This document shows positions 1 through 64,000 of a stretch of 64,000 nucleotides of DNA, one piece after another. A program made the translations under genes and the position numbers. The notes beneath the pieces were generated by a model that saw only the letters and a program-made list of their open reading frames with translations, was not told where the DNA came from and did not search any database. The first letter of the stretch is position 1. Each line of letters opens with the position of its first letter. The stretch is from Patescibacteria group bacterium (GTDB lineage: Bacteria; Patescibacteriota; Minisyncoccia; Moranbacterales; UBA2206), in NCBI GenBank assembly GCA_022711335.1, contig JAKLFF010000003.1, positions 13,508 through 77,507 on the forward strand, read 5' to 3'.

Positions 1-65
1 AAAATCATACGATTCTTCGCGCTGCTTTTCCGATAACAATTTAGAGTCGCGGATTAATTCCAAAC

Positions 66-113
66 TCCCCTTCTCCCCTTGGGAGAAGGTGGCCGTAGGC
101 CGGATGAGGGAGG
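66..113. repeat. Family E structured repeat (stem1 CCTTCTC..GAGAAGG, hairpin2 GGCC-gta-GGCC, GAGGGAGG tail), intergenic copy
   Basis: Same three-part architecture as the in-frame copies at 4725-4815 and 11637-11692. Confidence 0.5.
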
Positions 114-146
114 AATCTTTATTAAGCTTTTCTAATTTACTTAGTT

Positions 147-1042: not shown

Positions 1043-1317
1043 CTACTCCTCCTTTTTTTGTGTTCACTTCGGTCGTTCCCTTGCCGGAAACAGTTCCGGC
1101 ACCAATGTGTTGCTTCAATCATACAAAAAAAATAAACACCAGTCAATAAATAAGATTTCGTCAAACCCGATTTTATGCTAAACTATATCTATTGTAAAAA
1201 ATATCCTGCAAGCCCCATGGAGCAATCCGGGAAATGAGGATAAAAAATTATGGATATACTAATACTGCCTTACTAAATATTTTAAACTACTTCTTAGGGG
1301 TAGTTTTTATATTAAAT

Positions 1318-1424
1318 TTAAAAATCAAATCTCAAAATGCAAAATGACAATGTAAAATACAAAATTATTTTTCTTTTTTAATTTTGATTTGTCATTTTTA
1401 TTTTTGATATTTACATTTTGATTT
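1318..1424. repeat. Family G AT-rich palindromic element (AAATGACAATGTAAAATACAAAATT ... TGTCATTTTTATTTTTGATATTTACATTTT), ends at the dnaE ATG
   Basis: Near-identical copy at 16725-16830. Internal inverted repeat. Confidence 0.6.
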
Positions 1425-4400
1425 ATGAAATTCACACATCTTCACGTCCACAGTCACTACAGCCTTTTAGATGGTCTTGCCAAGATCGATGATCTTTTGA
1501 ACCGCGCCAAGGAACTGGGAATGGAGTCTCTCGCCATTACTGATCACGGGGTTCTTTACGGCGGAATTGAATTTTATATCAAAGCCAAAGAAAAAGGCAT
1601 TAAGCCGATCATCGGCTGCGAAATGTATGTTACTGCTGGAGATTATTTGAGCAAAAACAATACAACGGAAGACAAAACCCGCCATCACTTGATTCTGCTT
1701 TGTAAAAATGAAAAAGGTTACAAGAATTTAATGAAGCTTATTTCCATCGCACATTTGGAAGGATTCTATTACAAGCCAAGAATCAACAAAGAGCTTTTGC
1801 GTAAACATTCAGAAGGCCTGATTGGACTTTCTGCCTGTGCCGAAGGCGAAGTTCCCGCTGCTGCTATTTCCGGAGATCTCGAAAAAGCTGAAAAGCTAGC
1901 GCTGGAATATCAAAAAATTTTTGGCAAAGGCAATTTTTATCTCGAAATACAATATCATCCAAAATTCGAAAAACAAGCCATTGCCAACAAAGCTCTCGTT
2001 GAAATATCAAAAAAACATAATATTCCTCTCATTGCAACAAATGATATCCATTACGTCAAAAAGGAAGACGCGCCAATCCAGGATATTTTGCTTTGCATCC
2101 AGACCAACCGGAAAGTAACCGAAACAAACCGGATGAATCTCATGGATTTTGAACTCTATCTCAAGAGCCCGGAAGAAATGGCCGCTCATTTCAAAGATAT
2201 TCCCGAAGCGCTGGAAAATTCCCAAAAAATTGTCGACGCCTGCAATTTGGAAATAAGATTGGGCGAAACCCAGCTTCCCCATTTTGACGTTCCAAAGGGA
2301 TTTACCGCCAAATCCTATCTCCGAAAACTGGTTGAGGAAGGATTTGGAAAAAGATTTGGCAAAAATATAACAGAAGAACATAAAAACAGAATGGAATATG
2401 AGCTGGGAATCATCGAAAAAACCGGCTTTGCTTCCTACTTTTTGATCGTCCAGGACTTTGTCAACTGGGCCAAGGAACAAGGCATCGTTGTCGGCCCGGG
2501 CCGCGGATCAGCCGCTGGAAGTTTTGTTTCCTATCTTATCGGCATCACTAACATCGACCCGATAAAATACGACTTGCTTTTTGAACGTTTTTTAAATCCG
2601 GAGCGGATTTCTATGCCTGATGTCGACATGGATTTTGCCGATGACCGGCGCGATGAAGTTTTGGATTATGTCCGGGAAAAATATGGCAACGATCATGTGG
2701 CGCAGATCATTACCTTTGGAACTATGGCCGCGCGCGCCGCTATCCGCGATGCCGGCCGGGCGCTTGGGCTGCCCTACGACTTTTGCGACAAGACTGCTAA
2801 AATGATTCCTATGTTTTCCACTATTCCCAAAGCTATCGAAGAAGTAAAAGAATTTTCCGATTTTTATGGAAGCGGTCCGGATGCCAAAAAACTGATTGAC
2901 AGCGCGGCACGCCTTGAAGGCGTAGTCCGCCATGCGTCAATGCACGCCTGCGGAGTGGTCATTACAAAAGATCCAGTTGTTGAATATTCTCCTTTGCAAA
3001 AAATTATCGGAAAAGAATCCGGAGCGGTCACGCAATATTCATCTTCCACCAAATCCAGTTATATTGAAAAAATCGGCCTTCTTAAGATGGATTTTTTGGG
3101 GCTGAAAAATCTTACCATCATCCAAAATACTCTCCGCATTGTTCGAAAAATTCACCCTGTTGAATACGCCGCGAAGCGGCGTCCGCCAGAGGCGGAATTC
3201 AACAGGGTAAAAAATTCGGAAATTACCATAGATGATATCCCGCTAGACGACAAAAAAACTTTCGAGCTTTTGCAAAAAGCCAACACGACCGGAGTATTCC
3301 AGTTAGAAAGTTCCGGCATGAAAAGATATCTAAAACAGCTTGCGCCCAATGTTTTTGAAGATATTATTGCTATGGTCGCGCTTTATCGTCCGGGACCGAT
3401 GGATTGGATTCCGGATTTTATCGCCAGAAAGCATGGAGAAAGAGAAATTCGCTATCTCCACCCCGCCTTAAAACCTATTTTGGAAAAAACTTACGGCGTT
3501 GCGGTTTATCAGGAACAAATTATGCAAATCGCCCAGCAGCTGGCCGGATTCTCTTTGGGAGAAGCGGATGTGCTGCGAAAAGCGGTCGGAAAAAAAATCT
3601 TCGCGCTGGTTCAGGAACAAAAGCAAAAATTTATTGAAGGCTGCATCAGCCAAGGCGTAGCAAAGAATGTCGCCGAAAAAGTTTTTTCTTTTATTGAGCC
3701 TTTTGCCGGATACGGTTTTAACAGAAGCCATGCCGCGTGTTATGCGCTCATTGGATATCAAACCGCTTATCTCAAGGCTCATTTCCCTGCTCCATTTATG
3801 GCCGCGCTTCTCACATCCGATCAGGATAATATCGATCGAGTGGCCATTGAAGTCGCCGAGTGCATTGAAATGGGTATTGAGGTTCTTCCTCCTGATGTCA
3901 ATGAAAGTTTTGAGGAATTTGCCGTTATTATGGATAACGGCAAAGCCAGAATCCGCTTCGGCTTAAACGCCATCAAAAACGTCGGCCACACGATCGCCCA
4001 TGAAATTGTTGAAGAGCGAAAAAGAAATGGAAAATTCAAAAACATTACGGACTTCATTGAAAGAATCCAGCACAAAGATCTCAACAAAAAATCCATCGAA
4101 GCCCTGGCCAAAGTCGGAGCGCTCGAAGAAATGGGAGAAAGAAACCAAATCATAGCATCGATTGAAATTATTCTCGCTCACTCCAAAAATATCCAGAAAA
4201 TCAAAAATTCCAACCAGGAAAGCCTTTTCAGCGCTGAAGAAATTTCTCTTCCGGAAATCAAGATGGCTTCTTCAGAACCGGCTGAAAAAAAACAGCGCCT
4301 CGCTTGGGAAAAAGAGCTTCTCGGCCTTTATATCAGCGACCATCCGGTCAAAGAATACATCGAGTATCTCAATAAAATGGCTATCCGGATCAGAGATATA

Positions 4401-5045
4401 AATTCAGCGTATGTAGGAAGAAATATCAATGTCGGTGGCGTAATTTCCAAGGTCCAGAAAATTTTTCTCAAAAATCAAAAAACGATGCTATTTGTCACAA
4501 TCGAAGATATTGATTCGCGGATGGAACTCCTGGTTTTTCCAAAAGTCCTGGAAAATAACGGATCGGTCTTTGAAGAAGAGAAAGTGATTCTCGCAACCGG
4601 AAAAGTATCTGATAAAGACGGAAGTTTCAAAATTCTCCTCGACAGCGCCAAAGTCATAACCCCGCAGGAACTGGAAAAATTCAAAAGAATTTTAGCCACG
4701 CAGAAAAATAATACTTCTCATAATCCTCCTCTCCCCTCGGGAGAGGACTCGCCTCGATTCGACGAGACATCTTATCGAGTCGAAGCGGGTGTCCGAAGGA
4801 CAGGAGAGGGAGAAACTAAAAATAATCAGAATTCTAAATTAATCATTACCCTCCCGCCGAATTTTTCCAAAGAAATCCTGAAAAAACTTTCCGCGCATTT
4901 TGACAAGTGCCAGCTGGGATCAATGAAAGTTTATCTCAAAATCGGCACAACTACCTTGGAAACGCCTTATTGCATCAAAGAAATCGATGGCATAGAGCAA
5001 GATCTCAAAAACATTGTACCAGATGGAAAAATTGAGATAAGTTAG
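1425..5045 (+). CDS. dnaE: DNA polymerase III alpha subunit (PHP domain N-terminus), carrying two in-frame repeat insertions
   Basis: 1206 aa. Begins with a PHP motif (HLHVHSHYSLLDG) and has polymerase core motifs throughout. Confidence 0.95.
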   Translation: MKFTHLHVHSHYSLLDGLAKIDDLLNRAKELGMESLAITDHGVLYGGIEFYIKAKEKGIKPIIGCEMYVTAGDYLSKNNTTEDKTRHHLILLCKNEKGYKNLMKLISIAHLEGFYYKPRINKELLRKHSEGLIGLSACAEGEVPAAAISGDLEKAEKLALEYQKIFGKGNFYLEIQYHPKFEKQAIANKALVEISKKHNIPLIATNDIHYVKKEDAPIQDILLCIQTNRKVTETNRMNLMDFELYLKSPEEMAAHFKDIPEALENSQKIVDACNLEIRLGETQLPHFDVPKGFTAKSYLRKLVEEGFGKRFGKNITEEHKNRMEYELGIIEKTGFASYFLIVQDFVNWAKEQGIVVGPGRGSAAGSFVSYLIGITNIDPIKYDLLFERFLNPERISMPDVDMDFADDRRDEVLDYVREKYGNDHVAQIITFGTMAARAAIRDAGRALGLPYDFCDKTAKMIPMFSTIPKAIEEVKEFSDFYGSGPDAKKLIDSAARLEGVVRHASMHACGVVITKDPVVEYSPLQKIIGKESGAVTQYSSSTKSSYIEKIGLLKMDFLGLKNLTIIQNTLRIVRKIHPVEYAAKRRPPEAEFNRVKNSEITIDDIPLDDKKTFELLQKANTTGVFQLESSGMKRYLKQLAPNVFEDIIAMVALYRPGPMDWIPDFIARKHGEREIRYLHPALKPILEKTYGVAVYQEQIMQIAQQLAGFSLGEADVLRKAVGKKIFALVQEQKQKFIEGCISQGVAKNVAEKVFSFIEPFAGYGFNRSHAACYALIGYQTAYLKAHFPAPFMAALLTSDQDNIDRVAIEVAECIEMGIEVLPPDVNESFEEFAVIMDNGKARIRFGLNAIKNVGHTIAHEIVEERKRNGKFKNITDFIERIQHKDLNKKSIEALAKVGALEEMGERNQIIASIEIILAHSKNIQKIKNSNQESLFSAEEISLPEIKMASSEPAEKKQRLAWEKELLGLYISDHPVKEYIEYLNKMAIRIRDINSAYVGRNINVGGVISKVQKIFLKNQKTMLFVTIEDIDSRMELLVFPKVLENNGSVFEEEKVILATGKVSDKDGSFKILLDSAKVITPQELEKFKRILATQKNNTSHNPPLPSGEDSPRFDETSYRVEAGVRRTGEGETKNNQNSKLIITLPPNFSKEILKKLSAHFDKCQLGSMKVYLKIGTTTLETPYCIKEIDGIEQDLKNIVPDGKIEIS
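3152..3212. repeat. Family F structured repeat inserted in-frame in dnaE (outer stem ACCCTGTTGAAT/ATTCAACAGGGT enclosing hairpins CGCCGCgaaGCGGCG and TCCGCCagagGCGGA)
   Basis: ~62-nt near-identical copy in miaA at 11878-11940. Both encode ..KRRPPEAEFN.VKN.. Confidence 0.75.
4725..4815. repeat. Family E structured repeat inserted in-frame in dnaE (encodes [33 protein letters not shown])
   Basis: CCTCTCCC-ctcg-GGGAGAGG stem, an imperfect internal hairpin, and a GGAGAGGGAGAA tail identical to the miaA copy. Confidence 0.7.
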
Positions 5046-11062: not shown

Positions 11063-12085
11063 ATGCGAAGTAAAAATCCTAGAATTATCGTCATTCTCGG
11101 CCCTACTTCATCCGGAAAATCGGAAATAGCCATTCGGCTTGCCAAAAAATTCGACGGAGAAATCATTTCGGCTGATTCCCGGCAAATTTATCGCGGAATG
11201 GACGTAGGCACCGGCAAAGTGCCAAAATCAAAAATCAAAAATCAAAAATCAAAATTACAATTTAAAAATAAAAAGTTCAATCCATATTGGAGCAACGGCG
11301 TTGCTCATTATCTAATCGATATTGTAAGTCCCAAAACAAATTATAATGCGGCTAAATTTAAAAAAGATGCTTATGGAGCTCTTAAATTTATAATTAATCG
11401 TGGAAAAATTCCGATTATCTGCGGCGGAACCGGGTTCTGGATAAAATCCATCGTAGATAATGTAGCTTATCCGGAAGTAAAGCCGGATTGGAAATTACGC
11501 AATAAATTGCGAAATAATTCAGCGGAAAAATTATTTAAGATGCTTGAAAAATTAGATCCAAAGAGAGTTACGAATATCGATAAAAATAATAAAGTCCGCT
11601 TGATTCGCGCAATTGAAATATGCAAAAAACTCAAACATGTTCCCTCTCTCCCCCCGGGAGAGATGTCGCGAAGCGACAGAGAGGGAGAAAACCATAATTT
11701 TCTCCAAATAGGCATTAAACTTCCCAAAGAAAAACTTCATAAAAATATAAAAAAGCGCCTAAAAAAAAGATTCGAGGCGGGAATGATTAAGGAAATTAAG
11801 GATTTAAAAAAACAAGGATTGTCCTGGAAGAAAATCCAGAGCTTCGGCCTGGGATATTTCTGGATTCCGCTATATCTTCACCCTATTAAATACGCCGTGA
11901 AACGGCGTCCGCCAAAGGCGGAATTCAACATGGTAAAAAACAAGAAAGAATTATTTGATAAAATATACCAAGCAGAAAAAGATTATGCCAAACGACAGAT
12001 GACCTGGTTTGGAAAAGACAAGCGAATAAAATGGATCGAAAAATACAAGGATATTGAGAAAGAAGCTATGTCTTTTCTAAAATAA
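11063..12085 (+). CDS. miaA: tRNA dimethylallyltransferase, carrying in-frame repeat insertions
   Basis: P-loop GPTSSGKS and MiaA motifs. 340 aa. Confidence 0.9.
   Translation: MRSKNPRIIVILGPTSSGKSEIAIRLAKKFDGEIISADSRQIYRGMDVGTGKVPKSKIKNQKSKLQFKNKKFNPYWSNGVAHYLIDIVSPKTNYNAAKFKKDAYGALKFIINRGKIPIICGGTGFWIKSIVDNVAYPEVKPDWKLRNKLRNNSAEKLFKMLEKLDPKRVTNIDKNNKVRLIRAIEICKKLKHVPSLPPGEMSRSDREGENHNFLQIGIKLPKEKLHKNIKKRLKKRFEAGMIKEIKDLKKQGLSWKKIQSFGLGYFWIPLYLHPIKYAVKRRPPKAEFNMVKNKKELFDKIYQAEKDYAKRQMTWFGKDKRIKWIEKYKDIEKEAMSFLK
11637..11692. repeat. Family E structured repeat in-frame in miaA (CTCTCCCCccggGAGAG, TGTCGCgaaGCGACA, GAGAGGGAGAA)
   Basis: Same architecture and tail as the dnaE copy. Confidence 0.7.
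11878..11940. repeat. Family F structured repeat in-frame in miaA
   Basis: Near-identical to dnaE 3152-3212, with compensatory loop changes in the hairpins. Confidence 0.75.
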
Positions 12086-15253: not shown

Positions 15254-16720
15254 TTATTTTAGCTTGTTCTTTAGCATTTCCTGCGCTTTTTTAGGATTAG
15301 CTTTGCCTTTCGTTTTGGCCATAACCTGTCCAACCAAAAACTTCAGCGCGTTTTTTTTGCCGGCTTTATAATCAGCAACTGATTTTTCATTATTCGCGAT
15401 TACCTCTCCAACTATTTTTTCCAACTCGCCTTCATCGTCCATTTGAGCCAGATTTTTAGATTCGATTATCTGGGACGGATCTCCTCCGGTTTTGTACATT
15501 TCAGCAAGGACGGTCTGCGCCGCACTGGAATTTATTTTTCCACTGCCAACAAGACATATGAGTTCCGCATAATTTTCCGGCGTGATTTTCAAATCAGCCG
15601 CTGAATGGCTATGCTCGATCAAGTGTTTTCTGATTTCCACTATCATATAATTAGCCGCTAGTTTCATGGCCTTGTTTTCATCTAATTCAAACTCGCCACA
15701 ACTTATTTTTTCCTTAAGTTCGCCAATCACTTCTTCGAAATAAGCCGCCAAGTGCTTGTCAGAAACTAGAATCGCTACGTCATCTACTGGCAAATTATAT
15801 TCCTTTTGAAATCTTTCTGCTTTTCGATCCGGAAGTTCCGGCAATTTGCGTTTTAGCTCTTCGACATATTCTTTTGTAAACTTGAACGGCGGAATGTCCG
15901 GCTCCGGGAAATAGCGATAGTCATGAGCCGATTCCTTCACTCTTTGCGAAACAGTAGTTCCATGATTTGAATCATATCCTCTCGTTTCCTGAACCACTTT
16001 CTTTCCGGCTTCCAAAAGCTCTGTCTGCCGTTCAATTTCATAAGCAATCGCTTTTTCTACAAATTTGAAAGAATTGATGTTTTTCACTTCCACTTTCGTC
16101 CCGGATAATTTATCTTCGCCCTTTTTATAGAGTGACAGATTAACCTCACATCTCATCATTCCTTTTTCCATATCCGCATCGGAGATTTCCAGATACCGGC
16201 AAATTTGCTGAAGCTTCTGGCAAAACAATCTGGCTTCTTCAGCTGATTCAATATCCGGTTCAGTCACCAGCTCCATAAGCGGCACTCCAGCCCGATTGAA
16301 ATCCACGAGCGTATAATCCACGCCTTTGGGATGAATGAGTTTCCCGGTGTCCTCCTCCAGATGGATTCTTGTGATTCCCACCTCTTTTCCGTTTATTTTC
16401 AGTTTCCCGTTTTTGCAAAAAGGCTGATCATATTGGGAAATTTGATAGCCTTTGGGAAGATCGGGATAAAAATAATTTTTCCGGTCAAATTTGCTCTCGA
16501 GCGCAATTTCACAGTTCATGGCCAGTCCAGCCAGCTGGACAAATTCAATCGCTTGCCTGTTGGGCACTGGCAAAGTTCCAGGCTGGCCCGTACAAACCGG
16601 GCAAATATTGACGTTCGGCTCCCGTTCCAGCCCCAGCCCATTTTTCGAATCACAAAACATCTTAGAGGCTGTTTTTAGCTCTACATGCACCTCCATGCCA
16701 ATGACTGGGATATACTTCAT
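15254..16720 (-). CDS. gatB: Asp/Glu-tRNA amidotransferase subunit B
   Basis: 488 aa with GatB motifs throughout. Confidence 0.95.
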   Translation of the reverse strand: MKYIPVIGMEVHVELKTASKMFCDSKNGLGLEREPNVNICPVCTGQPGTLPVPNRQAIEFVQLAGLAMNCEIALESKFDRKNYFYPDLPKGYQISQYDQPFCKNGKLKINGKEVGITRIHLEEDTGKLIHPKGVDYTLVDFNRAGVPLMELVTEPDIESAEEARLFCQKLQQICRYLEISDADMEKGMMRCEVNLSLYKKGEDKLSGTKVEVKNINSFKFVEKAIAYEIERQTELLEAGKKVVQETRGYDSNHGTTVSQRVKESAHDYRYFPEPDIPPFKFTKEYVEELKRKLPELPDRKAERFQKEYNLPVDDVAILVSDKHLAAYFEEVIGELKEKISCGEFELDENKAMKLAANYMIVEIRKHLIEHSHSAADLKITPENYAELICLVGSGKINSSAAQTVLAEMYKTGGDPSQIIESKNLAQMDDEGELEKIVGEVIANNEKSVADYKAGKKNALKFLVGQVMAKTKGKANPKKAQEMLKNKLK

Positions 16721-16724
16721 AAAA

Positions 16725-16830
16725 ATAAAAAATCAAAAATTAAAATGAGAAATGACAATGTAAAATACAAAATTATTAATTATTTTAAATTTTTATCTGT
16801 CATTTTTATTTTTGATATTTACATTTTTCA
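16725..16830. repeat. Family G AT-rich palindromic element, abutting the gatB ATG
   Basis: Near-identical to 1318-1424. Confidence 0.6.
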
Positions 16831-17160
16831 TTATCTCCTGTCTCCGCTTCCGCCCAATTTTCCTCTTTCCATCCGGCTATACAGCTTTTCTATATTATGC
16901 TCCGCGATATCATCAAGCGTCAAACTCAACTCTGAAGCAATCTGGGAAACATACCAAAGAACATCTCCCAGTTCTTTTTTTATCATCTCTCTGGTCTCTT
17001 CGTCAATTATTCCGTTTTTATCGCGGATAACCTTTTTTATCTTCTCTGCCACCTCGCCCGACTCCCCGGCTAGCCCCAAAGTCGGATAGATATAATTATT
17101 CCCGGCATTCGGATATTTGGCCGTTATTCTTGATTTTTTCTGATACTCCTTAAAGTTCAT
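16831..17160 (-). CDS. MazG-like nucleotide pyrophosphohydrolase
   Basis: 109 aa, EExGE motif. Confidence 0.65.
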   Translation of the reverse strand: MNFKEYQKKSRITAKYPNAGNNYIYPTLGLAGESGEVAEKIKKVIRDKNGIIDEETREMIKKELGDVLWYVSQIASELSLTLDDIAEHNIEKLYSRMERGKLGGSGDRR

Positions 17161-17934: not shown

Positions 17935-19311
17935 TTATACCTTTCTTTCTGGAAAATAATCGCCGGTTTTTCGAAGCTTTAAATCCCGCCCGCAATAACG
18001 CGCTCCTTCCGCACATTTTCCGGTTCTGTAGCAGGGCGGTTCGAATATGCCAAGCAACTCATTGTGCTTCTTAATCGCAAAACGAAGCGCGCGACCCACA
18101 TGGTAGATTTCCTCCTGAGCGCACCAGCAAAGCCTCTTCGCTTGTTCATGAGCAATGGCATTTAGAGACCCGGTTTTATCGTATTTAACCATTGCGCCAT
18201 AAGGAGCAAGAATCATAGCAAGGGTTTGCGGAATGCTTTTCGATATGTCAACCCATTGCTTCATATATGCCTTTGCTACCGCGTGAAGCCCCATTTCGCT
18301 AGGAACTGGGGGCAAATAGAAAAATCCAATGAATTCCGGTTTTGATCTTCGCAGCGTGCGATGGCGCTGATCTTGACCCATTGTTGCTACGGAAATCTGA
18401 ATTTGAGTCTTTATCTCGGCAATCGCATTATCCATAAACAACGGATGGAAATGCAACAAATCAACAGGGTGAAGACTGCTAGAATTTGGCGGAACAAAAC
18501 CGGCGCCGCTTGCAAAATGCAGACTGTGAACAGGTTTTTTCGCAATTCCAATTAGATTAAGCGCAGGGATTTTTATTGCCCAGTAAGACTGGCTCTCTGT
18601 TTGCGATTCAAACATAAATGCAAGTTTGGGAAATTTTTCCAAAACACTAGAAACCATTTCTCCAACAACATATTGCATCGCCGGAGTCCAGGCGGTTCGA
18701 TACATAGCCGCAAGAACAGTAAGATTAATTGTATAGTCAAGCCCGGTCGGAAAGATGACTGGAATAAACATGCGCATCTGCTCTTGAGCAATTTTCGGAG
18801 CGTTCATTTGATCACCAACATAAGGACGCTCTTCTTTTATAAACCTCTCCGCAATAGCTGTAGCCGTAGAGATATTTGATTGATAAATATCAACGCCTTT
18901 TTTGACATACTCTACCACTTTTTTCAGTATCGATCCTCCAACAGACGGCCAAAAAGTTATAATGTACTTCTCAATTTCACCAAAATCAGGTTCGGTAAAC
19001 ATTTTAGCGCAATAGCGCCCGGATCGCTGATCTGAATTGTAAAAAGGATGGGTCAGATGAAGACCAAACGTGACATCCCCCACCGCAATTCCTTCAATAG
19101 AAAACGTGAAGAAACTGTGCTGAAGAGTTGTGTGATGGCCGACGTCAAAAAGTCTGCCTTTGACATCAATTGTTTTTCCCAATTGCGGATCCTCTGCCTG
19201 ATAGCACTTGAGGGCAGCATGAGAAGTCAGCTCCAATGGATCAGTGTTGGTGTGAGCAATAAGTTTTACGGAAACCATCTCTTTCTCCTTCTTTTTTCCC
19301 TTGGTTGGCAT
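17935..19311 (-). CDS. thyX: tandem-domain ThyX-like FAD-dependent thymidylate synthase; first RHR motif degenerate (THP), second half keeps QRHRTLRRS
   Basis: 458 aa. N-terminal half matches the ThyX pattern (HTTLQHSFFTFSIEG...QRSGRY). Confidence 0.5.
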   Translation of the reverse strand: MPTKGKKKEKEMVSVKLIAHTNTDPLELTSHAALKCYQAEDPQLGKTIDVKGRLFDVGHHTTLQHSFFTFSIEGIAVGDVTFGLHLTHPFYNSDQRSGRYCAKMFTEPDFGEIEKYIITFWPSVGGSILKKVVEYVKKGVDIYQSNISTATAIAERFIKEERPYVGDQMNAPKIAQEQMRMFIPVIFPTGLDYTINLTVLAAMYRTAWTPAMQYVVGEMVSSVLEKFPKLAFMFESQTESQSYWAIKIPALNLIGIAKKPVHSLHFASGAGFVPPNSSSLHPVDLLHFHPLFMDNAIAEIKTQIQISVATMGQDQRHRTLRRSKPEFIGFFYLPPVPSEMGLHAVAKAYMKQWVDISKSIPQTLAMILAPYGAMVKYDKTGSLNAIAHEQAKRLCWCAQEEIYHVGRALRFAIKKHNELLGIFEPPCYRTGKCAEGARYCGRDLKLRKTGDYFPERKV

Positions 19312-20565: not shown

Positions 20566-21126
20566 TTATTTCATTATCTTTTCCATCATTTCATCCACCT
20601 GCCTTATCAATTCTTCCTGCGCTCCGCCGTTATCCAGCTTGAAATCAGCCTGTTTTCCAATTTCGTGAATGGAAATTTCAGTGAGCTTTCCTTCCTCCTC
20701 AAGAAATTGCTCCAAAGTAGTTTTATCCTCTCCGTCGTTCTGCTTTCTGAATCTGGTTCGATTATAGCGCACTTTTATGTCCGCTGTTACGTACACCAAA
20801 TAGAATTTGTTTCCATACTTTTTCCGAAAAGGCTCCACATCGCCGTGCATCCTTATACCGTCCGCTATGATTACATCTGACCCGTTCTTTTCCATGTCCT
20901 GTATCAGAGAGTCGATAATCACTGAAGGACCGTATCCCTCTTTAAGAACTAGAGCCAATTTAATCAAATTGTCCCGGGTAATTGGCAATCTCAAATCTTC
21001 AAGCGTTCTTCTTAAAATCTTGGAGGTTCCATAATGAACGGCGCCGTATTTTTCTTTGAGATGGTCAGAAACCGTGCCTTTCCCGGCACCTTTTTCGCCT
21101 ATTAAACCTATAACTATTTTTGCCAT
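20566..21126 (-). CDS. P-loop nucleotide kinase-like paralog
   Basis: GLIGEKGAGKGT Walker A. Track N-terminus (to 21165) is translated Family C repeat. True start MAKIV abuts the repeat. Confidence 0.45.
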   Translation of the reverse strand: MAKIVIGLIGEKGAGKGTVSDHLKEKYGAVHYGTSKILRRTLEDLRLPITRDNLIKLALVLKEGYGPSVIIDSLIQDMEKNGSDVIIADGIRMHGDVEPFRKKYGNKFYLVYVTADIKVRYNRTRFRKQNDGEDKTTLEQFLEEEGKLTEISIHEIGKQADFKLDNGGAQEELIRQVDEMMEKIMK

Positions 21127-21276
21127 TTTTGTCCGCGAGGCACGAGCGGCTACAAAAATAAGCATCCCGCACCAATTCTATAATCAAAATTTAATATTTC
21201 TTAAAAACTGAGCCGCAGGCGATTCCGTGGCAGAAGCTATGCGTTAAGCATTATTTCATTCGGAATTTGGTGCGGG
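21127..21276 (-). repeat. Family C ~150-nt element (5' module TTTTGTC.GCGAG..ACAAAAATRAG; 13-14-bp terminal inverted repeats CCCGCACCAATTC ... GAATTGGTGCGGG)
   Basis: Three copies, each filling a co-directional intergenic gap and ending at a start codon. Confidence 0.7.
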
Positions 21277-23559: not shown

Positions 23560-23632
23560 GGGCTCATAGCTCAGTTGGTAGAGCGCCTCGTTTGCACCGA
23601 GGAGGCCAGGAGTTCGAATCTCCTTGAGTCCA
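23560..23632 (+). tRNA. tRNA-Ala (anticodon TGC), G3:U70 identity pair, no encoded CCA
   Basis: Full cloverleaf folded by hand. Confidence 0.9.
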
Positions 23633-23635
23633 CAT

Positions 23636-23712
23636 GGGCGTATAGCTCAGTTGGTTAGAGCGCGTCACTGATAATGACGAGGTCTCTGGTTCGAGTCCAG
23701 ATACGCCCACCA
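23636..23712 (+). tRNA. tRNA-Ile (anticodon GAT), CCA encoded
   Basis: Full cloverleaf folded by hand. Confidence 0.9.
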
Positions 23713-28342: not shown

Positions 28343-28346
28343 GCCA

Positions 28347-28498
28347 TTTTTGTCTACGAGCGAAGCGAGTAGCCACAAAAATGAGCACCCCGCACCAATT
28401 CGAAGATGAATTTTAGGTTAATTATATTTTAAGCCGAAGGTGACGACGCACACAATACTCTGCGTTAAGCCTAAACCCAGCCGGAATTGGTGCCGGGG
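28347..28498 (-). repeat. Family C element
   Basis: See copy at 21127-21276. Confidence 0.7.
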
Positions 28499-38520: not shown

Positions 38521-38618
38521 CTTCATGAAACATATAACATGCAACATAAAACAATTATTTTAAGAAAAGCTCCATCTGTTGTTATATGTTATATGCCGTA
38601 TGTTGTATGTTATATGCT
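38521..38618. repeat. Family A palindromic element, abuts the dedA ATG
   Basis: Arms of 8-10-nt units. Central AACAATTATTTTAAG shared with A3. Confidence 0.65.
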
Positions 38619-39620
38619 TCTTAGATATTCCGCCGCATCTTCCGGCCGAATTGTTGAAATCTCAATCCCGGTTGACATTTCCAGTCCCGCCCAGGTGGAT
38701 GTATGCGGGATTATTTCAATATGCCAATGATAATGCGGATAGTCCCGCCCATCGCAGGGCGAAGTATGGACATAAAAATTGTAAGCGGGATCTTTGAGGC
38801 CCTTAAAAATTTTAAAAATAGCTTTCTGCAGAGCCTCACCTGCTTTCACTTTGCTCTCAACCGGCGTCCTTTCGAAATAAGGCTTGTGTTTTTTGGGAAT
38901 AACCCAGGTTTCGAAAGCCATCCTTGAAGCAAACGGACAAAAAACCAGAAATTCATCATTTTCGAAAACAATTCTTTTTCGCTGCTCTGTCTCCCAGTCT
39001 ATCATCGTGCAATAAACACATTTTCTATTTGTTCTATAATAATTTTCCGCGCCGGTAAGCTCCAGGTTTATATAGGGAGATATGACCGGAATAGCTACCA
39101 GCTGCGAATGAGGATGAGAAATTGATGCGCCAGCTTCCACGCCGTGATTATGAAAAATTTCGATAAAATTAACGCTTTTTTTGTTCATAAGGCTGATGTA
39201 GCGGTCCTGATAAGCGTCGAAAATTTCCGCCACCTGATATCCGTCCAGCTCGGCAATCTGCTTTTTATGATCGCGAGTAACAACAATCTCATGGTAGCCG
39301 ACTCCGTCCATCATAAAATAAGGACCCTCTTCAATGTGCTTCACGCGGGCGCCTCTGGAGAAAGCCGGATATTTATTGGGAATAACCCGGAGCGTCCACT
39401 CTCCCTCGGAATTTTGGTACATAAGAACATCTTTTTCCTGCCCGGTTTTTTCCGGACAGCAAAAGAAACACAGCTTGTCCGGATTCTCTTTCATTTCCTG
39501 CCTACCATGTTCGGAAAATTCTTTCGGCCTCTTAGACCTTCCGGTCGCAATTACTACCCAGTCTCCAGTCACCAAATCTTGTCGAAGTTCTGAAATTTTA
39601 TTTTTATTTGTCTCTTCCAT
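38610..39620 (-). CDS. galactose-1-phosphate uridylyltransferase-like (HIT family, HPHSQ)
   Basis: Two half-site HIT motifs. Track ORF to 39680 is translated Family C repeat. True start MEET abuts the repeat. Confidence 0.6.
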   Translation of the reverse strand: MEETNKNKISELRQDLVTGDWVVIATGRSKRPKEFSEHGRQEMKENPDKLCFFCCPEKTGQEKDVLMYQNSEGEWTLRVIPNKYPAFSRGARVKHIEEGPYFMMDGVGYHEIVVTRDHKKQIAELDGYQVAEIFDAYQDRYISLMNKKSVNFIEIFHNHGVEAGASISHPHSQLVAIPVISPYINLELTGAENYYRTNRKCVYCTMIDWETEQRKRIVFENDEFLVFCPFASRMAFETWVIPKKHKPYFERTPVESKVKAGEALQKAIFKIFKGLKDPAYNFYVHTSPCDGRDYPHYHWHIEIIPHTSTWAGLEMSTGIEISTIRPEDAAEYLRSI

Positions 39621-39771
39621 TTTTGTCTGCGAGCGAAGCGAGCAGGTACAAAAATGAGAACCCCGCACCAATTCACTCAAAAGACTTTTTTTATTTTTAA
39701 ATTTAAGCCGTTAGGCGACCACACGCATAAAACTATGCCTGAGTAAAATTAAATTTGGAATTGGTGCGGGG
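39621..39771 (-). repeat. Family C element
   Basis: See copy at 21127-21276. Confidence 0.7.
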
Positions 39772-40541: not shown

Positions 40542-40589
40542 TTTTTTCTAAATATTAATGGTTATTTCTAAGGTTATTGTACCACAACT

Positions 40590-40710
40590 TCATGAAACAT
40601 GGAACATAAAGCATATAACATAAAACATAGAACATATAACATGAAACAATTATTTTAAGGGAAACTCCGTCTTGTTGCTATATGCTATATGTTTTATGTT
40701 CTATGATTTA
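40590..40710. repeat. Family A palindromic element
   Basis: Shares the central spacer with A2. Confidence 0.65.
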
Positions 40711-41117
40711 TCCAACCACGATTGCAGAATTATTCTGGCCGCTTCCTGATCATCCTGGTTCTTCACATGCTTCACTCCCCGTTCAATAAGATTATCCTGA
40801 GCCATTTTAGTCGTAAACATTTCGTTTTGATATTCTATATCAATATCAACCAGTTTTTTAATTAGTTTTCCCAAATGCTCTCCTTCGTATTCAACGTTTT
40901 CTTTGTTGATATAAGCCGGAAAACCAATTATAATTTTGTTAATACTGTTTTCTTGAATTATTTTAACCAGTTTTTGTAAAAAATCCTTATCATTGTCAAT
41001 TGTAGTATAGGCAAAAGCGATTTTGGTTTCGGAGTCTGCCATAGCCAAGCCAACCTTGGATCTCCCAAAATCTATGCCCAGATAGTGGCTTGTTTTAGGA
41101 TCGTTTGACTCTGTCAT
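40701..41117 (-). CDS. ruvX: Holliday junction resolvase-like RuvX/YqgF
   Basis: HYLGIDFG N-terminus. Confidence 0.85.
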   Translation of the reverse strand: MTESNDPKTSHYLGIDFGRSKVGLAMADSETKIAFAYTTIDNDKDFLQKLVKIIQENSINKIIIGFPAYINKENVEYEGEHLGKLIKKLVDIDIEYQNEMFTTKMAQDNLIERGVKHVKNQDDQEAARIILQSWLDKS

Positions 41118-62358: not shown

Positions 62359-63363
62359 TTAGTATTTGGTGTCCCTATTAAATACTACGCCTCTCACTGC
62401 TCCCGGATCTTGCCCAAGCGTTCCAATATCCTTGCCATTAAATTTAACATAGGTGGCGTTAGCTCGTCCAGAATTTATAACGATTTTATCCCCGGCACGG
62501 AAGCTCTGAACCGCTCCTGACAGCATTGTTCCTGAAAAAACCAGATTTTCATCGGCCTCAACCGAAAGCCAAACTGGACCTGGGTCAACTTTTATCTCAA
62601 TTTGAATTTCGTTCAATTCAGCCAAAACTGACTCCTCTTTTGATCCATCCTGGCCGCCTTGCGCCGTATCTTCCTTAAAGTTAGACCGGATTGACAGAGA
62701 GCTTAGCGTTTCTTTTCCGAACTTATTTATCGCTTTCATATTCAGAGCATTGATCCCGGATTGCAGAGTGATATTTTCGGAGAATTTTCCATCATCTCCA
62801 ACCAAAATCGGCTGATCGTTCACAAAAACTCGAACATCTTTATCAGTAACCCCCTCTACGCGCAAGCTATTTCCATCCACCGAAGTGTCCGGCTGTGGAT
62901 TGAGGATAATAAGCCGCGGAGCATCGGTAAACGACCCAATTTCCTTGTATAAATAAAATAATCCGGAAAATATCAAAATTGCGATTAACGACATAGCTAT
63001 TTTTTGGGGAGTAAAAACAAAGGAAGAAATGTTAATCGGTTTTTGAACAGATTTTTCAGCTTGCGGATTTTTGCTTTCTTCGAGATTTTTTTTAATCCCC
63101 TTCTCCTTCTCGTACAGCTTTATAAGCACATTCCCGTCTACTCCTAAAAAATCCGCATAGCTTCGAAGAAATCCTCTCACATAAACATCAGCTGGAAGCT
63201 TATCCCATCTGCCTTCTTCGAGATATTCAAGATAAGCAATTTGAATTTTTGTAATTCTGGAAACTTCGTTGAGAGCCATCCTTTTTCCATTTCTAAGCTG
63301 CCTCAGCTTTTCCCCCAGTGTTAGCGTTCCAACTCTCTTTTTTGTAAAACTGTTTCTAAGCAT
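62359..63363 (-). CDS. rodZ: RodZ-like (HTH plus TM plus C-terminal DUF4115-like)
   Basis: HTH LGEKLRQLR...YVRGFLRSYA. Confidence 0.7.
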   Translation of the reverse strand: MLRNSFTKKRVGTLTLGEKLRQLRNGKRMALNEVSRITKIQIAYLEYLEEGRWDKLPADVYVRGFLRSYADFLGVDGNVLIKLYEKEKGIKKNLEESKNPQAEKSVQKPINISSFVFTPQKIAMSLIAILIFSGLFYLYKEIGSFTDAPRLIILNPQPDTSVDGNSLRVEGVTDKDVRVFVNDQPILVGDDGKFSENITLQSGINALNMKAINKFGKETLSSLSIRSNFKEDTAQGGQDGSKEESVLAELNEIQIEIKVDPGPVWLSVEADENLVFSGTMLSGAVQSFRAGDKIVINSGRANATYVKFNGKDIGTLGQDPGAVRGVVFNRDTKY

Positions 63364-63464
63364 AAAACATGAAGCATATAACATGAAACATATAACAAGG
63401 TACACCAGCATAAATGTTTCACTCTATGCTAAATGTTATATGTTATATGTTTCATGTTTTATGT
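63364..63464. repeat. Family A element
   Basis: Fills the ftsK-rodZ gap. Confidence 0.6.
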
Positions 63465-64000
63465 TTATATTTGCCATTTGTCCCTCTTTTCCTGATCTTC
63501 TGTTGTATTCTCGTAATTTGTTTCTTCCGGATTGCCATTCGCATAAACTTCTCTCGGTTTGGCGCCATCAGCCGGACCAACTATTCCTTTATCTTCCAAG
63601 ACATCCAGGAGCCGAGCCGCCCGGGCATAACCAACGCGAAGACGGCGCTGGAGGAGAGAAGCGGAAGCTTTTTTAGCCCTGATCACTTCTTCTTTTGCCG
63701 CTTCGAAAAGCTCGTCTTCCTGATCATTGCTTGCCGCATTACTTTCAAACTTCAAAAGGCTCGTTTTCATTTCTCCAATAATATTTTCTTCTTTTTCAGA
63801 GTCTTTTACTTTTTGCTCTTTTATGAATTTTACCACTCTTTTCACTTCTGATTCGCTTACCAAAGCGCCCTGGATTCTTTTTGGTTTTGGAGAAGCTGCA
63901 GAAAGGTACAACAGATCACCATTCCCTAAAAGCTTCTCTGCTCCAGCCATGTCGAGGATAGTCCTTGAATCAATTTGGGTCGCCACTTGAAAGGCCACTC
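63465..64000 (-). CDS. ftsK: FtsK/SpoIIIE C-terminus including gamma winged-helix domain (partial, continues beyond the window)
   Basis: SASLLQRRLRVGYARAARLLDVLE gamma-domain motif. Confidence 0.75.
   Translation of the reverse strand, partial: VAFQVATQIDSRTILDMAGAEKLLGNGDLLYLSAASPKPKRIQGALVSESEVKRVVKFIKEQKVKDSEKEENIIGEMKTSLLKFESNAASNDQEDELFEAAKEEVIRAKKASASLLQRRLRVGYARAARLLDVLEDKGIVGPADGAKPREVYANGNPEETNYENTTEDQEKRDKWQI

What the first reader, a model, noticed from the sequence alone, without database searches (positions are those of the whole stretch)
11878..11940. Family F: a ~62-nt three-stem RNA-like module inserted in-frame in both dnaE and miaA
dnaE 3152-3212 and miaA 11878-11940 carry near-identical segments (TTCACCCTGTTGAATACGCCGCGAAGCGGCGTCCGCCAGAGGCGGAATTCAACAGGGTAAAAAA). 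Each has an outer 12-bp stem enclosing two GC hairpins. The hairpin loops differ between copies while the stems are kept (CGCCGcgaaGCGGCG vs CGCCGtgaaaCGGCG), which suggests structure is under selection. Both copies translate as ..KRRPP(E/K)AEFN.VKN.. inside unrelated enzymes, and neither breaks the reading frame. Rickettsia palindromic elements behave this way. I have not seen it described for this type of genome.
Basis: seen in the sequence. Interest (0 to 1): 0.8.

Follow-up and report, generated by a model that had tools for sequence, protein, structure and literature searches.

The report
Palindromic mobile repeat inside essential genes
A 57-base palindromic piece of selfish DNA has inserted, in frame, into the DNA polymerase and a tRNA-modifying enzyme of an ultrasmall (Candidate Phyla Radiation) bacterium; it belongs to a large repeat family, found across many uncultivated phyla, for which I found no published description.

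Summary
Window 3151-3214 (in dnaE) and 11877-11940 (in miaA) are 91% identical over 64 nt, are the only two copies in the window, and are read in frame. About 115 DnaE orthologues, including one 91% identical, lack the 19 codons. Most MiaA orthologues lack the segment too, so both are insertions.

The genome is a Candidatus Moranbacteria MAG. The element belongs to a large family. Members share near-invariant arms, (TT)Y-ACCCTGTTAAAT...ATTTAACAGGGT-R(AA), around usually two hairpins of arbitrary but paired sequence. This forms a three-way junction with strong covariation.

There is no strand bias relative to transcription and no Rfam match, so it behaves as DNA rather than as an RNA gene. About 85% of copies are intergenic. 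Intragenic ones sit in GatA, KsgA, HolB, FtsZ, Pgk, RmlD and others. Thirteen of 14 obey one length rule (core length = 1 mod 3), they map to variable, low-confidence or gapped segments, and they then decay.

I found no target duplication, no parent IS and no linked transposase. The flanks suggest insertion at TT^AA.

Verdict: an RPE-like selfish palindromic repeat that is a new variant of a known kind. The enzyme that moves it is unknown.

The parts
3153..3209 (.). Family-F element, dnaE copy: the 57-nt inserted unit (19 codons, HPVEYAAKRRPPEAEFNRV). Intact palindrome.
   Evidence: Present only in the window genome's own strains (P0121-123) and, decayed, in P0130. Absent from about 115 other DnaE orthologues, including the 91%-identical P0124. 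Clean 19-residue gap against Taq Pol III alpha 2HPI. Covariance model score 62.6 bits.
3154..3165 (.). Left conserved arm ACCCTGTTGAAT (dnaE copy); pairs with 3197-3208.
   Evidence: The arm is nearly invariant across the 148 distinct aligned rows of A3.
3167..3181 (.). Inner hairpin 1: CGCCGC-GAA-GCGGCG.
   Evidence: Folding. Helix 2/3 pairs take all Watson-Crick types across the family.
3182..3196 (.). Inner hairpin 2: TCCGCC-AGA-GGCGGA.
3197..3208 (.). Right conserved arm ATTCAACAGGGT (dnaE copy).
11879..11935 (.). Family-F element, miaA copy: 57 nt (HPIKYAVKRRPPKAEFNMV). The outer stem is decayed (9/12 pairs); both inner hairpins are intact.
   Evidence: Covariance model score 51.8 bits. 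Most MiaA orthologues have nothing at this position. Low-confidence weak beta-hairpin at residues about 273-291 of the AlphaFold model.
1425..5045 (+). Host gene dnaE (DNA polymerase III alpha, 1206 aa).
   Evidence: Pfam. 100% match to P0121, 'DNA polymerase III subunit alpha [Candidatus Moranbacteria bacterium]'.
11063..12085 (+). Host gene miaA (tRNA dimethylallyltransferase, 340 aa).
   Evidence: Pfam IPPT. 100% match to P0001.

Best explanation
Both segments are copies of a small, non-autonomous, palindromic mobile DNA element.

Anatomy. The element has a nearly invariant 12-nt arm, ACCCTGTT(A/G)AAT, and its reverse complement. Each arm is extended by one element base (Y on the left, R on the right). 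The arms enclose usually two short hairpins whose sequence is free but whose pairing is kept. The single strand, or an extruded cruciform, therefore forms a three-way junction with no unpaired junction bases.

How it behaves. It acts at the DNA level and in either orientation. It disperses within genomes and between phyla. Most copies lie between genes. A copy that lands inside a gene survives only if three conditions hold: its core length is 1 mod 3, so that the inserted unit is a whole number of codons; it is read in a stop-free frame, mostly (H/Y/N)PVK...FNRV; and it falls in a tolerant segment of the protein. After that, neither the structure nor the peptide is maintained, and the copy decays. 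The dnaE copy is recent (perfect palindrome, confined to this species-level lineage). The miaA copy is older (broken outer stem).

What is shown: insertion, family membership, structure conservation, lack of strand bias, the reading-frame filter, placement in gapped or low-confidence segments, and decay.

What is inferred: the element is moved in trans by an enzyme that recognises the conserved arms in folded or cruciform DNA and inserts it between TT and AA without duplicating the target. That enzyme has not been identified.
For: Insertion:
- The 19-codon segment is absent from about 115 DnaE orthologues.
- The empty site was read in L001.
- It is a clean gap against the 2HPI sequence.
- Most MiaA orthologues lack the segment.

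Family:
- 141 elements when one mismatch per arm is allowed.
- The covariance model finds further diverged copies.

Structure:
- 75 of 127 copies have the two-hairpin interior.
- 94.6% of cells are paired, against 73.8% shuffled and 37-48% slid. There are 844 double-sided changes against 252. The covariation score is 0.42 against 0.10, with 0 of 500 shuffles as high.

DNA rather than RNA:
- The terminal asymmetry is oriented 18 versus 14 relative to transcription. The sense-minus-antisense MFE difference has p = 0.17. G.U counts are 58 versus 43.
- No Rfam family matches.

Dispersal:
- Near-identical interiors occur with unrelated flanks, within one SAG or MAG and across CPR classes. Similarity ends 3-4 nt outside the arms.
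- The window's own subfamily also sits in frame in RmlD (L125) and intergenically (L126).

Filter:
- 13 of 14 clear intragenic copies have core length = 1 mod 3, while the rest are uniform at 36:43:34.
- Hosts include GatA, KsgA, HolB, an aminotransferase, FtsZ, Pgk, glycosyltransferases, MotA/ExbB and DsbD.
- The inserted length equals the core plus 2 nt in DnaE (19 aa) and in KsgA (20 aa).

Placement:
- The MiaA model has pLDDT 82, with dips at the inserts.

Decay:
- The same-site copy in L002 is 63% identical, against 80-84% in the flanks. Differences fall 6:6:9 over codon positions, and the fold is lost.
Against: - No mobilising enzyme, autonomous parent or polymorphic (filled versus empty) site within one population was found, so mobility is inferred from distribution and not observed.
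- No target-site duplication was detected. This is atypical for transposase-driven MITEs.
- A 12-nt arm conserved across at least six phyla is unusual for selfish repeats. It could instead reflect a conserved host factor.
- Why the interior must be hairpins remains unexplained.
- The pair counts come from an alignment fitted to the model, and many elements are counted on both strands.
- The genome scan was truncated, so copy numbers per genome are unknown.
- Translation of the inserts is assumed from intact reading frames in essential genes; it has not been shown.
Confidence: 0.72

Rival explanations
1. It is a classical MITE: a deletion derivative of an insertion sequence whose DDE transposase recognises the 12-15-bp terminal inverted repeats as double-stranded DNA. 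On this reading the internal hairpins are incidental.
For: It has terminal inverted repeats, small size, multiple dispersed copies per genome and a stem-loop fold, all of which are MITE hallmarks (PMC3184786).
Against: No target-site duplication is seen at any offset from the arm ends out to the conserved TTY/RAA (offsets 0-3); weak 2-4-nt excesses at offsets 4-5 were not resolved. No kb-scale pair of arms encloses an ORF in 850 kb. No transposase family is enriched among 148 neighbouring ORFs. The interior is hypervariable yet always paired, which recognition of the ends alone would not require.
Confidence: 0.12
2. It is a functional structured RNA: a cis-regulatory, terminator or mRNA-stabilising module, or a small RNA. 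On this reading the coding copies are by-products.
For: Covariation is very strong. Many copies lie in intergenic regions between co-directional genes. In several CPR lineages the module is part of a larger conserved non-coding unit ending about 45 nt upstream of start codons. One copy lies about 30 nt upstream of a 23S rRNA.
Against: There is no orientation bias relative to transcription, no G.U asymmetry and no stability difference between strands. No U-tract follows the element (flank profile). No Rfam match was found, even at E <= 1. Intragenic copies lose the fold.
Confidence: 0.08
3. It is a host recognition site rather than a mobile element. It would be a conserved protein-binding or recombination site (for example a Xer/dif-like half-site pair, or an attC-like folded recombination site) or a DNA-uptake signal, kept because the cell uses it.
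For: A 12-nt arm is conserved across phyla while the interior varies, as in integron attC sites. The arm contains GTTAAAT/ATTTAAC, which fit the attC box consensus GTTRRRY/RYYYAAC (seen directly in the sequence; the consensus is from my own knowledge). It shares TGTTAAAT with the E. coli XerD arm of dif (from memory, not tested).
Against: The boxes are in the opposite order to attC (read directly from the sequence). Density is only about 1 per 30 kb (window: 2 in 64 kb), too sparse for an uptake signal and too frequent for dif. Copies occur inside essential genes, where a binding site has no obvious role. The presence/absence pattern among orthologues indicates gain and loss. No integrase is enriched nearby.
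Confidence: 0.06
4. The inserted peptide is an adaptive protein module selected for a function in DnaE and MiaA, such as a basic KRRPP patch that binds nucleic acid.
For: Both hosts act on nucleic acids, and the peptide is basic.
Against: The same DNA element occurs mostly outside genes. Interiors, and hence peptides, differ freely between copies at the same MiaA site. Conservation is at the nucleotide and palindrome level. The L002 copy evolves with no codon-position bias. The insert is a low-confidence excursion in the MiaA model.
Confidence: 0.02

Closest known systems
Rickettsia palindromic elements (RPE; Ogata et al. 2000, as summarised in PMC3184786)
   Same: Both are palindromic repeats that occur between genes and also inside protein-coding genes, including essential ones. 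In genes they are in frame, without stops, in tolerated positions, and they add a peptide. Neither has a linked transposase.
   Different: RPEs are about 105-146 bp and restricted to Rickettsia (PMC3184786). This element is 40-70 bp. It has a defined three-way junction with invariant arms and a free interior, and it is spread over Patescibacteria, Omnitrophota, Desulfobacterota, Bacteroidota, WOR-3 and others. Sequence relatedness to RPE families was not tested.
REP/BIME elements and their RAYT transposases (PMC3733652)
   Same: Both are short GC-hairpin palindromes, mostly extragenic, with several families per genome. [quoted passage not shown] Both show mosaic arrangements with other palindromes. 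Neither has target duplications.
   Different: REPs are single 20-40-bp hairpins tagged by an unpaired GTAG or CGTC head. This element has no such tag, carries a conserved 12-15-bp outer stem enclosing two hairpins, and no RAYT-like gene was seen next to copies.
Bacterial MITEs (e.g. Correia/NEMIS, Nezha, Chunjie; PMC3184786)
   Same: Both have terminal inverted repeats, small size, a stem-loop fold, dispersed copies and occasional in-frame fusion with ORFs.
   Different: No target-site duplication and no parent IS with matching ends were found. The interior is structurally constrained.
Integron attC recombination sites
   Same: Both have conserved short terminal boxes, a hypervariable interior and conservation of folded single-strand structure rather than sequence.
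   Different: The order of the boxes is inverted relative to attC. Copies are solitary rather than in cassette arrays, and no integrase is nearby. This is an analogy of design only.

Membership tests
Rickettsia palindromic elements (RPE) | Palindromic repeat able to form a stable stem-loop | tested here: met
   dG -37.7 kcal/mol, z = -7.6 for the dnaE copy. Family-wide pairing is 94.6%.
Rickettsia palindromic elements (RPE) | In-frame insertion inside protein-coding genes without disrupting them | tested here: met
   DnaE, MiaA, RmlD, GatA, KsgA, HolB, FtsZ, Pgk and others. The frame and length filter is shown.
Rickettsia palindromic elements (RPE) | Size about 105-146 bp and occurrence in Rickettsia (PMC3184786) | tested here: not met
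   The unit is 40-70 bp. The hosts are Patescibacteria and other phyla.
Rickettsia palindromic elements (RPE) | Sequence homology to an RPE family consensus | not tested
MITE | Terminal inverted repeats flanking a short non-coding core | tested here: met
   The arms ACCCTGTTAAAT/ATTTAACAGGGT are invariant or nearly so.
MITE | Target-site duplication (direct repeats) at the ends | tested here: not met
   No excess of 2-5-nt direct repeats at offsets 0-3 from the arm ends; weak 2-4-nt excesses at offsets 4-5 (e.g. 10 vs ~1 expected for 4 nt at offset 4) were not resolved. Clean 19-aa and 20-aa gaps in DnaE and KsgA equal the core plus 2 nt.
MITE | Related autonomous IS with the same ends | tested here: inconclusive
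   None was found in 850 kb of loci or among 148 neighbouring ORFs. Whole genomes were not searched.
REP / RAYT system | 20-40-bp single hairpin with an unpaired GTAG or CGTC tag (PMC3733652) | tested here: not met
   The ends read TTY-ACCCTG with no GTAG or CGTC tag, and the architecture is a three-way junction.
REP / RAYT system | Association with a RAYT (Y1 HUH) gene flanked by the repeats | tested here: inconclusive
   Not among the top families of neighbouring ORFs. Genome-wide co-occurrence was not testable here.
Integron attC | R''(RYYYAAC)...R'(GTTRRRY) boxes in that 5'-to-3' order, arranged in cassette arrays next to intI | tested here: not met
   Both motifs are present but in the reverse order (GTTAAAT...ATTTAAC), read directly from the sequences. 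Copies are solitary, and no integrase is enriched nearby.
Described structured RNA family (Rfam 15) | Match to a curated covariance model | tested here: not met
   The window at gathering threshold gave only 2 tRNAs. Loci scanned at E <= 1 gave only chance miRNA-hairpin hits at E about 0.5. Twelve more loci at gathering threshold gave nothing.

The most novel reading that the evidence does not exclude
The family may be the substrate of an unrecognised, structure-specific DNA transposition or recombination system. An enzyme would read a conserved 12-15-bp arm presented on a folded three-way DNA junction, much as attC is read by IntI or REP by RAYT. It would insert the element at TT^AA without duplicating the target. 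The system would have spread horizontally across at least six bacterial phyla, and it would be a general source of extra loops in essential proteins of Candidate Phyla Radiation bacteria.
Probability: 0.3. Interest if true: 0.78.

Novelty: new variant of a known kind. Interest (0 to 1): 0.6.

Why it matters
- It extends the 'selfish DNA inside protein-coding genes' phenomenon, best known from Rickettsia, to the Candidate Phyla Radiation and neighbouring uncultivated phyla. It shows this for core machinery: DnaE, HolB, FtsZ, GatA, KsgA and Pgk.
- It helps explain the length heterogeneity of CPR proteins. The window's MiaA alone carries three repeat-derived inserts. This matters for annotation, alignment-based phylogenomics and structure prediction of these organisms.
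- The design, with invariant arms and a free but paired interior, together with the cross-phylum spread, points to a conserved trans-acting partner that has not been identified. Finding that partner could reveal a new DNA-manipulating enzyme.
- The element is a ready marker of horizontal exchange among uncultivated lineages.

Tried and rejected
- Further copies in the window: none beyond the two. The single-arm matches at 18459 and 43266 have no partner.
- Rfam: no family matched.
- Literature: no paper describes the element or RPE-like elements in these phyla. The only paper containing both arm strings (pPO1 plasmid) is a primer coincidence.
- Target-site duplication: none convincing. Weak excesses at offsets 4-5 probably reflect subfamilies with extended conserved flanks; I did not check this.
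- Autonomous parent: no long-range arm pairs.
- Linked mobility gene: none enriched among 148 neighbouring ORFs. The second batch of 83 neighbours was not scanned.
- Phage vehicle: only 2 hits in 2.9 million viral contigs.
- Shared flanks ACCTTT/GCTCAA as an insertion into an rRNA or other known RNA gene: rejected. The site is a composite non-coding repeat upstream of different genes.
- Strand-specific RNA: rejected.
- Peptide-level census: the query was too short, had no word candidates, and gave zero hits in the exhaustive representative search. These searches are underpowered for a 31-aa query, so they are not evidence of absence.
- attC and dif/XerD resemblance: considered from memory. The attC box order is inverted, and the dif idea was not tested.
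- GatA and Pgk junctions: the host loops are too variable to define the exact inserted length.

Full report
OBSERVATION
Window 3151-3214 and 11877-11940 are 64-nt direct repeats at 91% identity. The 28-nt core occurs exactly twice in 64 kb, against 0 expected. Both lie in long + strand ORFs: DnaE (1425-5045) and MiaA (11063-12085). They are read as IHPVEYAAKRRPPEAEFNRVKN and LHPIKYAVKRRPPKAEFNMVKN. The dnaE copy folds into a 12-13-bp outer stem enclosing two GC hairpins, as RNA (dG -37.7, z -7.6) or as DNA (dG -25.8, z -9.1). In the miaA copy three outer pairs are broken, and only the hairpins fold on the + strand. The hairpin-1 difference between the copies is a compensatory C-G to T-A change, not a loop change.

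THEY ARE INSERTIONS
The exact MiaA and DnaE proteins belong to a Candidatus Moranbacteria (Patescibacteria/CPR) MAG recovered in several independent assemblies.
- In an alignment of 117 DnaE sequences, the 19 residues HPVEYAAKRRPPEAEFNRV occur only in the window genome's own strains. A decayed version occurs at the same site in P0130. The 91%-identical P0124 lacks them, and its empty site was read in L001.
- Against the Taq Pol III alpha sequence (2HPI) the segment is a clean 19-residue gap near residue 640. In Pfam terms it falls between the DNA_pol3_alpha and finger domains.
- In MiaA, most orthologues have nothing after the conserved IPLYL.

A LARGE FAMILY
By record title the loci are 58 Patescibacteria, 18 Desulfobacterota-type, 12 Omnitrophota, 9 unclassified, 8 Bacteroidota, 5 WOR-3 and a few others. 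The MAG labels are taken as deposited.
- Allowing one mismatch per arm gives 141 compact elements in 850 kb. Most 'lone' arms belong to elements whose outer stem carries compensatory changes.
- A covariance model built from 26 copies recovers both window copies at 62.6 and 51.8 bits, and finds further diverged copies in the loci.
- Density is roughly one per 30 kb, both in the window and in the loci beyond the triggering copy. This is a rough estimate.

ANATOMY
Conservation extends 3 nt beyond the arms: TTY-ACCCTGTTAAAT ... ATTTAACAGGGT-RAA. Seventy-five of 127 interiors are two abutting hairpins, and 12 are a single hairpin. Some WOR-3 copies have AT-rich, unstructured interiors.

On the structural alignment:
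- 94.6% of cells pair, against 73.8% after shuffling and 37-48% with partners slid.
- 844 cells show double-sided changes, against 252.
- The covariation score is 0.42 against 0.10 (0 of 500 shuffles as high).
- All 14 inner pairs take all four Watson-Crick types, while the arm is almost invariant.
Caveats: the alignment is fitted to the model, and many elements appear on both strands.

DNA, NOT AN RNA GENE
For copies in co-directional intergenic regions or inside genes, the terminal Y/R asymmetry is oriented 18 versus 14 relative to transcription. The sense-minus-antisense stability difference has p = 0.17, and G.U pairs number 58 versus 43. No Rfam family matches, even permissively.

CONTEXT AND THE CODING FILTER
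Of 127 copies, 19 are intragenic, 82 lie between co-directional genes, 8 between convergent genes and 7 between divergent genes. Several upstream genes terminate on the element's own TAA.
- Hosts confirmed by Pfam: GatA amidase, KsgA, DNA pol III delta', a class-V aminotransferase, FtsZ (linker), Pgk, glycosyltransferases, a SAM methyltransferase, MotA/ExbB and DsbD.
- The window's own interior variant is rare. The metagenome scan found only two more copies: one in frame in RmlD, in the same reading frame, and one intergenic.
- Thirteen of 14 clear intragenic copies have core length = 1 mod 3, whereas the remainder are uniform at 36:43:34. In-frame status is therefore a survival filter and not a family-wide adaptation.
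- The inserted length is the core plus 2 nt in DnaE (55+2 = 19 codons) and in KsgA against B. subtilis KsgA (58+2 = 20 codons). It follows that the conserved flanking TT and AA are target-derived.
- This gives a predicted target of TT^AA with no duplication. PVK-frame copies sit between an NTT codon (F/L/I/V) and an AAN codon (K/N) in 13 of 14 cases, by inspection.
- An AlphaFold model of the window MiaA (pLDDT 82) loses confidence exactly at its three repeat-derived inserts, including family F at residues about 273-291.

FATE
The same-site dnaE copy in L002 is 63% identical to the window copy, against 80-84% for the flanking gene. Differences fall 6:6:9 over the three codon positions. Only 5 of 14 arm pairs remain, and dG is -9.8 against -37.1. 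Once a copy is in a gene, neither the fold nor the peptide is maintained.

RECURRENCE
Fourteen of 120 MiaA homologues carry an F-type peptide, all in the same C-terminal loop, with at least four unrelated interiors. On an NJ tree of the MiaA cores they sit in at least 8 separate places, each next to insert-free sisters (no bootstrap support). This indicates a hotspot produced by target preference combined with tolerance at that position. The pristine window dnaE copy and the decayed P0130 copy at one site, with closer relatives empty, are best read as two hits at different times.

MOBILITY
- Near-identical interiors with unrelated flanks occur within one SAG (L016 and L044), within one MAG (L018, L022 and L034), and across CPR classes (L008, L049, L077 and L091).
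- No target duplication, no long-range arm pairs, no enriched transposase or recombinase among 148 neighbouring ORFs and almost no viral carriage were found.
- The enzyme is therefore unknown. I infer a trans-acting, structure-aware enzyme that makes no duplication. This step is inference.

COMPARISON
In behaviour it matches RPEs, and intragenic REPs, closely (PMC3184786 and PMC3733652). It fails defining features of each known family: RPE size and host range, MITE target duplication, the REP tag and single hairpin, and attC box order. It works like these elements but is not a member of any of them. It is a new variant of the palindromic-repeat kind. No description was found in the held literature.

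LIMITS
- The genome scan was truncated.
- Copy numbers per genome were not measured.
- Mobility and translation are inferred, not observed.
- The peptide-level censuses failed for technical reasons.

Noticed in passing
window 11224-11274 and 11638-11689 (both inside miaA): MiaA carries two further repeat-derived in-frame inserts besides family F. One is an AT-rich repeat with short periodicity (KIKNQKSKLQFKNKKF) that also occurs intergenically at 1314-1364 and 16722-16772. The other is a GC-rich three-way/hairpin module (PPGEMSRSDREGE). Both coincide with low-confidence segments of the AlphaFold model.
   Followed up: partly
window 60-118, 150-200, 11638-11689: A second GC-rich palindromic family has the same three-way design but a different outer stem (CTCCC.../...GGGAG, e.g. 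TCCCTCTCTCCCCCCGGGAGAGATGTCGCGAAGCGACAGAGAGGGA). The same or related peptides (PPGEMSRSDREG, GRGWPE..GEG) occur at this MiaA position in other Patescibacteria.
   Followed up: partly
L008, L031, L046, L091, L098, L099, L102 (+) and L069, L110, L077, L009, L094 (-), around the element: In several CPR lineages the family-F module is embedded in a larger conserved non-coding unit: an upstream long hairpin TAAAGGGCTTTGTCTGAAATTTG...CAAATTTCAGnGACAAAACCTTT, then the module, then GCTGAATTTTA. The unit ends about 45 nt upstream of start codons of different genes, which by their translated flanks look like SerRS, TsaC, QueA and an ABC ATPase (not checked by a domain search). There are four copies in one Saccharibacteria MAG. 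It may be a mosaic (BIME-like) repeat or a mobile 5' region.
   Followed up: partly
window 21121-21178, 28344-28401, 39617-39674: A three-copy repeat (69-91% identity to the reference copy) contains the hairpin ATTTTTGT-CTACGAGCGAAGCGAGTAG-..ACAAAAAT. It lies at the 5' ends of minus-strand ORFs (family D13).
   Followed up: no
window 1311-1426 and 16719-16834: A 116-nt AT-rich repeat (84% identical) is itself a long imperfect palindrome. One copy lies immediately upstream of the dnaE start, the other next to the start of the minus-strand ORF 15254-16720.
   Followed up: no
window 36043-63456 (many intergenic regions, e.g. 38522-38616, 40589-40711, 63357-63467): Families of 7-nt-periodic AT-rich repeats (CATGTTATATG / CATATAACATG) are arranged as inverted pairs in many intergenic regions (families D1, D3 and I3-I7).
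   Followed up: no
L041 1197-1254 (Nealsonbacteria complete genome CP179888.1): A family-F copy lies about 30 nt upstream of the 5' end of the 23S rRNA gene, in the spacer after the tRNAs.
   Followed up: no
DnaE homologues P0127, P0146, P0180: Some close DnaE relatives are 1362-1639 aa long and carry intein/Hint-type Pfam domains (PF14528, PF14890). So dnaE in this clade is invaded by inteins as well as by palindromic repeats.
   Followed up: no
window 23560-23712: tRNA-Ala(TGC) and tRNA-Ile(GAT) lie 2 nt apart. This is the pair usually found in rRNA spacers, but there is no rRNA gene anywhere in the 64-kb window.
   Followed up: no
L082 4732-6437 (WOR-3), also L039, L073, L026: A subfamily with the same arms has a 63-65-nt AT-rich, non-hairpin interior and extended conserved flanks (GCGTTT...GAATCT). 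Three copies lie within 1.7 kb in L082.
   Followed up: no
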